A stretch of DNA of 64,000 nucleotides, from contig OX597820.1 in assembly GCA_951406725.2 (NCBI GenBank), positions 59,334,001-59,398,000 of the forward strand. The letters run 5' to 3'. This document shows, in pieces, positions 7,414 to 11,495 of the stretch. This DNA is from Octopus vulgaris (lineage: Eukaryota). Below the pieces are notes generated by a model. The model was not told the DNA's origin. It saw only the letters and a program-made list of their open reading frames with translations, and did not search any database. Positions within the stretch are counted from its first letter, which is position 1, and the number at the start of each line of letters is the position of its first letter. A program made the translations under genes and the position numbers.

Positions 7414-7808
7414 CTAGCAGTATCGCCCGGCGTTGCTCGGGTTTGTAAGGGAAATAATTATATAAGCATTTTTAGAGATGTAAAGTATAATAGCCATCTC
7501 AATATGGCTAACCACAAAGGGGAGGGGGTGTTACTGTAGCTTTTTACGTTCTGAGATTTAATAATAAATTTTAGAGAGTTACTTCCCTTATATATGTCAA
7601 AAATGGATTAAAAATGGGAAAAATTGATGGTAAATTTTTTTTAAAATCGTAGACTCATCGTAGACACGCGCTAATACCCAGACGGTCTCGATATGAATCA
7701 CGACTATAAGATACCCGGTTTTGGTTAAACTGCACCGCAAAATGTGGGAGTAGTTAGGAATCTAAATCGTAGGAGACAGACACACAACCTCACTTTTATA
7801 TATAAAGA
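7414..7808 (-). mobile_element. Non-autonomous Helitron (~395 bp)
   Basis: On the minus strand: A|TCTTTATATATAAAAG ... hairpin CCCGAGCAACGCCGGG ... CTAG|T. These are canonical Helitron termini and AT target. Confidence 0.85.
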
Positions 7809-7908
7809 TTTCCTCTATTTACATAATATTGAGGTCTCTTTCTTTCTTTTGTTATCTTACTGTTTTTACCAATATACATATATATATATATATATAAATA
7901 TATATATA

Positions 7909-8231
7909 GTTACAGAGATGTACTTGCATAGCAAGTGACTTGATCTGAGATCGTGTGCTGGAACGAAAACAGTTGCAGCGTTGAAGGTGTTTATAAGCCA
8001 TTTAAGAAACACACAAAAACCGTTAGATTCACTTCAACATTTAAATTTAATTTGTCAAAATATTTTCGTCGCTTTGAGACCGCGACCTGTTAGCACGATA
8101 TTTTTGTCAGTGAACAGGTCGCGGTCTGAAAGCGACGAAAATATTTTGGCAAATTAAATTTAAATGTTGAAGTGAATGTAACGGTTTTTGTGTGTTTCTT
8201 AAATGGCTTACAAACACCTTCCACGCTGCAA
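7909..8231 (+). mobile_element. (TA)n-flanked fold-back cassette with hammerhead-like motif (Penelope-like-element derived)
   Basis: ~120-bp inverted arms (7972-8091 / 8113-8231). Motif UUUGUCA-GUGAACA-G-GUCGC..GCGAC-GAAA-AUAU-UU-UGGCAAA at 8103-8153. Confidence 0.6.
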
Positions 8232-8596
8232 TATATATATACACACATATATATATATGTATGTATGTATGTATGTGTGTATATGTGTATGCATGTATGT
8301 GTGTGTGTGTGCGTGTCTGTGCTTGTGATTGTCCTCCACCACTGCTTGACAATGAATGTTGGTTTGTTTACATCCCTGTCACCTAGTGGTTTGACAAGGG
8401 AAACAGATAGAATAAGTACAATGCTTACAAAAATAAAAGTGGAGTTGATTCATTAAACTACAATTCTTCAAGGCATTGCCCCAGCATGGCCACAGACCAA
8501 TGGCTGGAAAAAGCAGAAGAATAAAAGAATACATTCTCTGCTTTGGTCTTATGTTCAAGGCATGAGAAAGCTTGAGTTTACATGAGAAGGCCTAAC

Positions 8597-9180
8597 AGAC
8601 CTGGTAGAAACAGCAGCCAAATCTCCCTCAAATCACACCTTACTGTCTTATGTATGTATATATATATGAGCCAATGAGGGGGACCTCTACATGGTAGCTA
8701 GACCTGGTAGAAATAGCAGCCAAATTTCCCCCAAATCACACCTTACTGTCTTATCTATGTATATATGTATGTATGAGCCTATGAGGGAGACCCCTACATG
8801 GCAGCTAGACCTGGTAGAAATAGCAGCCAAATTTCCCCCAAATCACACCTTACTGTCTTATGTATGTATATATATATGAGCCAATGAGGGGGACCTCTAC
8901 ATGGTAGCTAGACCTGGTAGAAATAGCAGCCAAATTTCCCCCAAATCACACCTTACTGTCTTATCTATGTATATATGTATGTATGAGCCTATGAGGGAGA
9001 CCCCTACATGGCAGCTAGACCTGGTAGAAATAGCAGCCAAATTTCCCCCAAATCACACCTTACTGTCTTATCTATGTATATATGTATGTATGAGCCTATG
9101 AGGGAGACCCCTACATGGCAGCTAGACATGGTAGAAATAGCAGCCAAATCTCCCTCAAATCACACCTTACTGTCTTATCT
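8597..9180 (+). repeat. 103-107-bp minisatellite, ~5.7 copies, with alternating A/B variants
   Basis: Unit GAGGG(G/A)GACC(T/C)CTACATGG(T/C)AGCTAGACCTGGTAGAAATAGCAGCCAAAT...; only 2 copies in the opposite palindrome arm (10193-10382). Confidence 0.9.
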
Positions 9181-9204
9181 TTCTGCTACTTGGATATAGG
9201 TGTT

Positions 9205-9699
9205 ATATTCGTCGTAAAAAACTTTCCTGTCACACACTCACGCACACGCACACACACACACACACACACACACGCACCCTCACACACACACACGCGCACA
9301 CCCACCCACACACACCCACTCACACACACGCACGTTAGCTTACAATTTTATTTATATATTTGCGTGTCTATGTGTGAAAAGAGGAAGTGGGAGGCAGAGT
9401 GAAAGAATCACTCACTACAGTAAGTCAATTACTTTCATTTTATTCGTTGCCCACTGTGTGTGTGCGTTTGCGTGTGGTGTAAACCAGACTAAGAAAAGCA
9501 TTTGACACACACACCAGAATGTGAGTTTTCTGTAAATTTTGCTTAATTGGAGTTTAAATTTTAAAAACTGGACCTGGCACGACCCGATGCATTCTACTCT
9601 TAAAACTGCTAGGTAAATTGTAATTGAAGAAATCCTATATTGTAGATTTGTATAACTCCCAAAGGGAGGCAGATAAAATCTGCCTTTTATAATAAGAGA
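9205..9699 (-). mobile_element. 5' portion of a second Helitron family (no own 3' terminus visible)
   Basis: Minus strand begins A|TCTCTTATTATAAAAGGCAG, a Helitron-type 5' end. No hairpin+CTRR is seen before the minisatellite. Confidence 0.65.
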
Positions 9700-10687
9700 T
9701 TATAAAAGGCAGATTTTATCTGCCTCCCTTTGGGAGTTATACAAATCTACAATATAGGATTTCTTCAATTACAATTTACCTGGCATTTTTAAGAGTACAA
9801 TGCATCGCGTCATGCCAGGTCCAGTTTTTAAAATTTAAACTCCAATTAAGCAAAATTTACAGAAAACTCACATTCTGGTGTGTGTGTCAAATGCTTTTCT
9901 TAGTCTGGTTTACACCACACGCAAACGCACACACACAGTGGGCAACGAATAAAATGAAACTAATTCACTTACTGTAGTGAGTGATTCTTTCACTCTGCCT
10001 CCCACTTCCTCTTTCCACACATACACACGCAAATATATAAATAAAATTGTAAGCTAACGTGCGTGTGTGTGAGTGTGTGTGCGTGTGTGTGTGTGTGACG
10101 GTGCGTGTGTGTGTGTGTGTGTGTGCGTGTGCGTGAGTGTGTGACAGGAAAGTTTTTTTAGACGAATATAACACCTATATCCAAGTAGCAGAAAGATAAG
10201 ACAGTAAGGTGTGATTTGAGGGAGATTTGGCTGCTATTTCTACCAGGTCTAGCTGCCATGTAGGGGTCTCCCTCATAGGCTCATACATACATATATACAT
10301 AGATAAGACAGTAAGGTGTGATTTGGGGGAAATTTGGCTGCTATTTCTACCAGGTCTAGCTACCATGTAGAGGTCCCCCTCAATTCTTTTATTCTTCTGC
10401 TTTTTCCAGCCATTGCTCTGTGGCCATGCTGGGGCAATGCCTTGAAGAATTGTAGTTTAATGAATCAACTCCACTTTTATTTTTGTAAGCATTGTACTTA
10501 TTCTATCTGTTTCCTTTGTCAAACCACTAGGTGACAGGGATGTAAACAAACCAGCATTCGTTGTCAAGCAGTGGTGGAGGACAATCACAAGCACAGACAC
10601 GCACACACACACACACACACATACATGCATACACATATACACACATACATACATACATACATATATATATATGTGTGTATATATATA

Positions 10688-11010
10688 TTGCAGCGTGGAA
10701 GGTGTTTGTAAGCCATTTAAGAAACACACAAAAACCGTTACATTCACTTCAACATTTAAATTTAATTTGCCAAAATTTTTTCGTCGCTTTCAGACCGCGA
10801 CCTGTTCACTGACAAAAATATCGTGCTAACAGGTCGTGGTCTCAAAGCGACGAAAATATTTTGACAAATTAAATTTAAATGTTGAAGTGAATCTAACGGT
10901 TTTTGTGTGTTTCTTAAATGGCTTATAAACACCTTCAACGCTGCAACTGTTTTCGTTCCAGCACACGATCTCAGATCAAGTCACTTGCTATGCAAGTACA
11001 TCACTGTAAC
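10688..11010 (-). mobile_element. Fold-back/hammerhead-like cassette (copy in right palindrome arm)
   Basis: Reverse complement of 7909-8231; motif at 10766-10816. Confidence 0.6.
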
Positions 11011-11106
11011 TATATAAATATTTATATATATATATATGTATATTGGTAAAAACAGTAAGATAACAAAAGAAAGAAAGAGACCTCAATATTATGTAAATAG
11101 AGGAAA

Positions 11107-11495
11107 TCTTTATATATAAAAGTGAGGTTGTGTGTCTGTCTCCTACGATTTAGATTCCTAACTACTCCCACATTTTGCGGTGCAGTTTAACCAAAACCGG
11201 TATCTTATAGTCGTGATTCATATCGAGACCGTCTGGGTATTAGCGCGCCACGATGAGTCTACGATTTAAAAAAAAATTACCATAAATTTTTCCCATTTTT
11301 AATCCATTTTTGACATATATAAGGGAAGTAACTCTCTAAAATTTATTATTAAATCTCAGAACGTAAAAAGCTACAGTAACACCCTCCCTCTTTGTGGTTA
11401 GCTATATTGAGATGGCTATTATACTTTACATCTCTAAAAATGCTTATATAATTATTTCCCTTACAAACCCGAGCAACGCCGGGCGATACTGCTAG
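11107..11495 (+). mobile_element. Non-autonomous Helitron (copy in right palindrome arm)
   Basis: A|TCTTTATATATAAAAG ... CCCGAGCAACGCCGGG ... CTAG|T. Confidence 0.85.

What the first reader, a model, noticed from the sequence alone, without database searches (positions are those of the whole stretch)
7414..11495. 4.1-kb palindrome formed by a composite Helitron re-inserted head-to-head at its own 5' end
Seen: the arms end exactly at Helitron 3' termini (hairpin + CTAG|T), and the centre is a Helitron 5' end (minus strand TCTCTTATTATAAAAGG at 9699). The right arm starts A|TTATAAAAGG, lacking the first 7 nt, and ends CTAG|T, so it sits in the AT dinucleotide at the donor's 5' junction. Between the termini lie captured pieces: a minisatellite, a SINE tail, a ribozyme fold-back cassette and a complete small Helitron of another family. 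Known: Helitrons capture DNA by bypassing 3' ends, and their multimers are normally head-to-tail. Inference: a 3'-less Helitron read through about 1.8 kb to the next terminator and the copy landed inverted at the origin, or replication folded back. This would generate long palindromes and dsRNA.
Basis: partly seen in the sequence, partly recalled or inferred. Interest (0 to 1): 0.72.

Follow-up and report, generated by a model that had tools for sequence, protein, structure and literature searches.

The report
Helitrons landing on their own heads
The 4-kb mirror repeat is two separate copies of a common rolling-circle transposon, one inserted backwards seven bases into the start of the other at a base that is reused at 14 places in this genome, likely because the transposase treats the element's own start as a preferred landing site.

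Summary
The palindrome is real (98.4% identical arms), but it is not a donor copied next to itself. The right arm's 'missing' 7 nt lie at 7407-7413, outside the left arm. So the left copy inserted inverted at A^T between nt 7 and 8 of the right copy's 5' end. Both arms belong to a dispersed non-autonomous Helitron subfamily, and the right arm groups with copies elsewhere, not with the left arm. RepHel-coding partners share the first 270 bp. The same nt 7/8 nesting occurs at 14 loci. The family has 36 head-to-head, 341 head-to-tail and 11 tail-to-tail junctions. Of 21 head-to-tail pairs examined, 19 join different subfamilies, so they look like serial insertions rather than rolling-circle multimers. 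Insertion flanks follow A^T-N5-6-ATAW, which the head supplies. Best reading: RepHel preferentially integrates at resident 5' origins, on either strand (inferred). No ribozyme was found. Reads were uninformative.

The parts
7399..7406 (+). Host flank ending in the target A of the older (right) insertion
7407..7413 (+). First 7 nt (TCTCTTA) of the resident right copy, displaced by the intruder
   Evidence: the same displaced head follows the intruder's CTAG at 14 of 14 nt 7/8 loci
7414..9699 (-). Intruder: complete 2286-bp non-autonomous Helitron, 5' TC to CTAG 3', inserted at A^T with no target duplication
7414..7808 (-). Small Helitron of another family (395 bp) serving as the 3' end; terminal hairpin at 7426-7441
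   Evidence: 22,215 exact 3' ends of this type counted in the genome
7973..8231 (.). 259-bp fold-back cargo (119-bp arms); no hammerhead core. Mirror copy at 10688-10946
8280..8530 (.). Piece of a dispersed SINE-like repeat (name recalled). Mirror copy at about 10383-10640
   Evidence: about 69% to window 4943-5193 and 47064-47341
8531..8884 (.). Segment absent from the right arm; the same deletion junction occurs in three dispersed copies
   Evidence: L082_L, L088_L, L098_L
8597..9180 (.). 107-bp minisatellite, 5.5 units (about 1.8 units at 10194-10382 in the right arm)
9430..9699 (-). 270-bp family 5' region shared at 96-98% with RepHel-coding elements
   Evidence: L220, L221, L222, L232, L233
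9700..11495 (+). Resident: older copy of the same subfamily from its nt 8 to CTAG; small-Helitron module at 11107-11495
11496..11509 (+). Host flank TAGAAGATAAAGGG, which fits the target motif T-N5-ATAW

Best explanation
The palindrome is a nested pair of independent copies of one non-autonomous Helitron subfamily, the left copy inserted backwards between nt 7 and 8 of the right copy, and it likely arose because the family's RepHel transposase preferentially integrates at the 5' ends of resident copies. Shown: the nesting order, the independence of the arms, the reuse of this base at 14 loci, the flank motif A^T-N5-6-ATAW, and the much larger number of same-strand insertions at the 5' junction. 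Inferred: RepHel docks on or opens a resident 5' origin and nicks the target strand 6-7 nt 5' of an ATAW motif. On the top strand this puts the newcomer at the 5' junction and gives head-to-tail mixed dimers. On the bottom strand, where head plus host flank read A^TAAGAG-ATAW, it gives a head-to-head palindrome. Long palindromes result when both copies happen to be of the same subfamily.
For: (1) The displaced head sits beyond the intruder's CTAG at 14 of 14 nt 7/8 loci, each with its own flank. (2) The right arm groups with L082_L and L098_L (99/96) and shares a deletion junction with 3 of 14 other copies; the left arm is 1.8% from it, and 10 of the 14 others are closer to the left arm. (3) Arms share a subfamily at 8 of 39 head-to-head loci against 13.5% for cross-locus pairs, p = 0.15. 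(4) Site specificity: inverted insertions inside the head number 10 at nt 7/8, 2 at the junction and 0 at three other inner A^T sites; same-strand insertions at those four inner sites number 0. (5) Motif: 39 of 55 non-microsatellite 3' flanks fit it against 5.1% of background AT sites. Hit residents complete ATAW in 13 of 14 cases against 17 of 28 unselected heads (p = 0.036; ATAA 7 of 14 against 3 of 28, p = 0.008). The only motif site on the top strand inside nt 7-270 (nt 53/54) was hit once and three non-motif neighbours never. (6) Beyond the motif: of 11 distinct family-headed copies followed by TAAGAGAT, 10 are nested in heads, while 18 of the first 100 listed ATAAGAGATA sites coincide with exact heads (my match; p about 3e-7 at 18%, 2e-4 at 35%). 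A rough motif-only expectation is 0.1-0.4 hits. (7) There are 341 head-to-tail junctions, 65 of the 100 listed with no spacer (my count), and 19 of 21 adjacent pairs are different subfamilies.
Against: No biochemistry: docking and nicking are inferred. The motif comes from 55 flanks in non-random loci and mixes families that share the 3' end. A position weight matrix ranks the inverted site only at the 75-78th percentile of AT sites, so the motif model is crude. Only one internal motif site was used as control, on one strand (10 against 1, p = 0.006). Upstream sequence context, not only head binding, could raise the rate. The 341 count is inflated by arrays copied as units (10 rows in one 2.18-kb-period array), and its 3' pattern is shared with other families. 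Of 36 head-to-head junctions, 24 have spacers, mostly TA runs, which co-insertion into TA microsatellites can explain in part. Age gave no support: the intruder's head is closer to the family centre at only 8 of 13 loci, and in the window it is farther (7 against 3 differences). The tree bootstrap had not settled.
Confidence: 0.72

Rival explanations
1. Same nesting of independent copies, but the hot spot comes from local target sequence alone (AT-rich, ATAW motif, TA microsatellites), with no special role for the 5' origin.
For: Both window flanks and 13 of 14 nested sites fit the motif. Junction sequences score at the 96-99th percentile. The family favours TA runs, and 11 tail-to-tail pairs exist. 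An AT-rich preference 3' of the site is reported for Helraiser (PMC4778049, section 10).
Against: Of 11 family insertions at A^TAAGAGAT, 10 are in heads although heads hold about a fifth of such sites. An internal motif site of the same family was hit once. The inverted site scores only at the 75-78th percentile. Head-to-head outnumbers tail-to-tail 36 to 11 although matching 3' ends are about six times more numerous.
Confidence: 0.2
2. One reading: a 3'-less Helitron read through local DNA to the next terminator and the copy landed inverted at its own origin, or replication folded back.
For: The arms are 98% identical and the same subfamily. A nearby fold-back-like duplication that includes host flank exists at one other locus (L249).
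Against: The cargo is fixed in dispersed copies. The arms are not sisters and differ by a deletion shared with other loci. The displaced 7 nt show the left arm is the newcomer. No local hopping was seen for Helraiser in 701 events (PMC4778049, section 10).
Confidence: 0.04
3. Assembly artefact, or a palindromic element that moves as one unit.
For: No read was shown to span the junctions. Long palindromes are a known assembly risk (own knowledge).
Against: The arms differ at 25 of 1391 sites with lineage-specific variants. The junctions obey the A^T rule at all four ends. The 14 loci have different arm pairs and flanks.
Confidence: 0.04

Closest known systems
Canonical non-autonomous Helitrons (Helibat/Helraiser type; PMC4778049 passages and section 10, PMC5876387 passages)
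   Same: 5' TC, 3' hairpin + CTAG, insertion at A^T without duplication, AT-rich preference 3' of the site, captured cargo, RepHel partner.
   Different: A spaced target motif (A^T-N5-6-ATAW) and fixed hot spots at the family's own 5' end are not stated in the passages read. Those passages take head-to-tail junctions as support for rolling-circle multimers; here 19 of 21 pairs are mixed dimers.
Adjacent dissimilar maize Helitrons (Du et al. 2008, PMC2267711, passages)
   Same: [quoted passage not shown]
   Different: One pair and one orientation (the abstract says head-to-head, the text head-to-tail). There is no inverted nt 7/8 site, no census and no motif.
[quoted passage not shown]
   Same: Clustering of Helitrons with Helitrons.
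   Different: Regional statement as cited; here the preference is resolved to single nucleotides and strands. The primary paper was not held.
TE dimers by double insertion in Drosophila (McGurk and Barbash 2018, PMC5932611, passages)
   Same: Dimers form by independent insertion at good target sites; head-to-head pairs are rarer than head-to-tail pairs.
   Different: There the target is a duplicated host site of TSD-making elements; here it is the element's own origin and there is no TSD.

Membership tests
Helitron (canonical, non-autonomous) | 5' TC terminus | tested here: met
   Left arm at 9699; right arm's TC displaced to 7407
Helitron (canonical, non-autonomous) | 3' CTRR preceded by a short hairpin | tested here: met
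   CTAG at both ends; 16-nt hairpin 12 nt upstream, -6.2 kcal/mol with RNA parameters
Helitron (canonical, non-autonomous) | Insertion between A and T with no target duplication | tested here: met
   All four window junctions; 32 of 32 plain 5' flanks end in A and 96% of 55 plain 3' flanks start with T
Helitron (canonical, non-autonomous) | RepHel-coding partner with the same 5' end | tested here: met
   14 of 19 RepHel loci fetched (picked from 150 listed) carry this head. L221 ORF: Helitron_like_N 9e-58, PIF1 1e-56, ending inside the helicase match
Helitron (canonical, non-autonomous) | Circular intermediates and present activity | not testable with these tools
   Needs circle sequencing or a transposition assay
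Rolling-circle Helitron multimer | Head-to-tail units copied from one donor | tested here: not met
   Window pair is inverted and non-sister; 19 of 21 head-to-tail pairs differ in subfamily
Fold-back / inverted-repeat element moving as one unit | Same two-arm unit at dispersed loci, with TSD | tested here: not met
   Arm pairs and flanks differ among loci; no TSD
Hammerhead ribozyme (7973-8231) | CUGANGA and GAAA catalytic core; Rfam match | tested here: not met
   No CTGANGA on either strand; no ribozyme family at E<=1. The core motif is recalled.

The most novel reading that the evidence does not exclude
Helitron integration is origin-directed: RepHel uses the same recognition for target and 5' end, so resident 5' ends act as homing sites on both strands. 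Many genomic head-to-tail Helitron junctions are then serial insertions, not rolling-circle products, and the family steadily builds kilobase palindromes that could feed dsRNA editing or silencing in an editing-rich animal.
Probability: 0.4. Interest if true: 0.7.

Novelty: new variant of a known kind. Interest (0 to 1): 0.5.

Why it matters
This single locus is ordinary nesting of two known-type elements. The family-wide pattern matters more. It gives nucleotide-level, strand-resolved evidence on how Helitrons choose targets, a step the papers read leave open. It questions the use of genomic head-to-tail junctions as evidence of rolling-circle multimers. It also suggests a built-in landing pad for Helitron-based insertion tools, which can be tested with the existing Helraiser system. 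The palindromes are a predicted source of long dsRNA and of instability, but neither was shown.

Tried and rejected
Reads: no RNA holder was listed as on record. Laying two raw DNA runs (about 3% read) and two contig sets on 6990-7860 gave no cover of the unique flank, so the junction and allele state could not be told. Four guessed-RNA contig sets on 11500-13200 covered only repeat pieces, so a possible splice acceptor at about 11779 stayed unsupported. Rfam miRNA hits at the centre are below gathering scores and reflect the hairpin only. Dating intruder against resident was uninformative (8 of 13). In one search the 'head sites' list was shifted by one base at the join; only the six explicitly scored 13-mers were used. 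An early note gave the deletion as 378 bp; one search gives 354. Rows dropped: L113 (no intact centre) and L100 (arm too short) from the 8-of-39 count; 3 of 19 cluster arms (L081_R, L092_R, L095_L) from the tree; one duplicated flank (L128) and 9 hits without this family's head in the DNA examined (5 kb upstream for 8 of them, 1.5 kb for L127) from the 10-of-11 count. Papers sought but not held: Yang and Bennetzen 2009, the Helraiser structure paper (Kosek 2021, recalled) and Pritham and Feschotte 2007. They may already describe target similarity to the 5' end. No supplements were read. Paper searches listed no report of a fixed inverted self-insertion site; most hits were seen only as listings.

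Full report
Observation. The window lies at G000:C7:59334001-59398000 in a 2.8-Gb genome. It is likely an octopus, from a recalled SINE look and earlier scan notes; this was not tested. Aligning 7390-9699 with the reverse complement of 9694-11520 gives 1774 matches and 28 mismatches outside gaps. The right arm lacks left-arm 8531-8884 and one 107-bp minisatellite unit. Both outer ends are hairpin + CTAG|T, and the centre is a Helitron 5' end. The fold-back at 7973-8231 is real but has no hammerhead core and no Rfam ribozyme match.

The overlooked detail. The seven bases the right arm seems to lack (TCTCTTA) are at 7407-7413, directly outside the left arm's CTAG. The order is host A, TCTCTTA, inverted complete left copy, rest of the right copy, CTAG, host T. 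The right copy therefore came first, and the left copy inserted backwards at the A^T between its nt 7 and 8. All four junctions follow the Helitron A^T rule, with no duplication.

The arms are independent members of a dispersed family. A 25-mer of the head occurs 3553 times. The whole cargo (fold-back, SINE-like piece, minisatellite, small Helitron) recurs in dispersed copies, and 19 of 80 arms taken from head-to-head loci cluster with it. I compared 16 of these 19 arms over 1397 non-repeat columns. The two window arms differ at 25 of 1391 sites. The right arm groups with L082_L and L098_L (99/96; bootstrap not settled) and shares its deletion junction with L082_L, L088_L and L098_L. Ten of the 14 other copies are closer to the left arm than the right arm is. 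Of 19 RepHel loci fetched (from 150 listed), 14 carry the same head, five of them at 96-98% over 270 bp. The L221 frame has Helitron_like_N and PIF1 domains. Subfamilies share the first 240-270 bp and end in small-Helitron modules about 80-88% alike.

The junction recurs. Exact patterns give 36 head-to-head, 341 head-to-tail and 11 tail-to-tail junctions, with 22,215 3' ends of the shared type counted. Ten of the 36 have the window's exact centre, and four more with mismatches came. At all 14 the intruder's CTAG is followed by the displaced head and a different host flank. Arms share a subfamily at 8 of 39 measurable loci against 13.5% across loci, p = 0.15, so long palindromes like this one are the chance subset. 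Inverted insertions inside the head number 10 at nt 7/8, 2 at the junction and none at three other A^T sites. Same-strand insertions at the four inner sites number 0; the 9 hits were unrelated. Of the 100 head-to-tail rows listed, 65 have no spacer by my count: 51 with a 2-nt shorter head and 14 with the long head. In 20 such loci picked from contigs C1-C2, 19 of 21 adjacent pairs were different subfamilies. A spacer-free CTAG|TC junction between unlike units is what an insertion at the resident's 5' A^T leaves.

Target rule. Of 55 non-microsatellite 3' flanks, 39 read T-N5-6-ATAW, against 5.1% of 11,094 background AT sites. These flanks come from non-random loci and mix families. Both window flanks fit. 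On the bottom strand the motif is completed by host bases, and hit residents complete it in 13 of 14 cases against 17 of 28 unselected heads. The one top-strand motif site inside nt 7-270, nt 53/54, was predicted as a control. It was hit once and three non-motif neighbours never; L247 shows true nesting there. The motif alone seems too weak. There are 15,619 ATAAGAGATA sites, about 18% of them in exact heads (first 100 rows), yet 10 of 11 family-headed copies with this flank are nested in heads. A rough motif-only expectation is 0.1-0.4 hits per family-wide site. Against a simple reading: a weight matrix ranks the inverted site only at the 75-78th percentile, there was one control site, arrays inflate the 341, and relative age was uninformative.

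Mechanism. Established (PMC4778049 passages, PMC5876387 passages): RepHel nicks the 5' end, moves one strand through a circle and joins it between A and T. Inferred here: the resident 5' end recruits or is opened by RepHel, and the target nick falls 6-7 nt 5' of an ATAW motif. The top strand gives mixed head-to-tail dimers and the bottom strand gives head-to-head palindromes. Confidence in the nesting of independent copies is about 0.92; confidence that the origin itself adds preference beyond local sequence gives 0.72 overall.

Comparison with what is known. The arms meet the tested Helitron criteria. Du et al. 2008 (PMC2267711, passages) offered insertion at the 5' A^T as one reading of a single maize pair. 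A review (PMC12477314, passages) cites preferential insertion near other Helitrons. McGurk and Barbash (PMC5932611, passages) show dimers by double insertion for TSD-making elements. Helraiser showed an AT-rich 3' preference and no local hopping in 701 events (PMC4778049, section 10). PMC13286980 and PMC13282606 (passages) added nothing on this point. Seven searches listed no fixed inverted self-insertion site, but three key papers were not held, so novelty is provisional. Scan look-ups by words, place and sequence showed no note of it.

Verdict. What remains is a nucleotide-precise habit of a Helitron family to land on its own 5' ends: a new variant of a known kind, interest 0.5. Transcription, dsRNA and read support were not shown.

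Noticed in passing
window 1661-3613 (-): Intronless 650-aa ORF with CABIT domain matches (PF12736, E 8.7e-20, two stretches), 3.8 kb from the palindrome.
   Followed up: partly
heads in L031-L249; A 2-nt shorter head (TCTTA instead of TCTCTTA) occurs almost only after TA runs or directly after another copy's CTAG (24 of 27 distinct contexts), and makes up 51 of 100 listed head-to-tail junctions against 1 of 30 unselected heads. It scores as a better target (98.6th percentile). Its origin is unexplained.
   Followed up: partly
G000:C2:206160148-206179829: Ten head-to-tail junctions at about 2181-bp period with the same TA spacer: a tandem array that includes flank.
   Followed up: no
L249 6183-10000 (G000:C1:156911200-156915000): Beside a nt 7/8 nested pair, an inverted duplication at 97-99% that repeats an element end together with its host flank; a fold-back rearrangement or a mis-assembly.
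   Followed up: partly
L077 / L217 (G000:C1:137517837-137524480): A head-to-head pair in which one arm is a 6.6-kb RepHel-coding copy with a frame broken into three ORFs. RepHel-coding copies L223 and L229 also carry another copy's CTAG directly at their 5' junction.
   Followed up: partly
window 6376-6951 and 44393-44968: Two 576-bp copies, 95% alike, in inverted orientation 37 kb apart; looks like a Tc1/mariner piece (recalled, untested).
   Followed up: no
window 23264-23497: A free-standing relative (about 70%) of the 259-bp fold-back cargo; its class is unknown.
   Followed up: no
window 11764-11820: Pyrimidine tract + AG followed by a 13-codon frame and stop, resembling a last coding exon; no RNA contig covered it.
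   Followed up: partly
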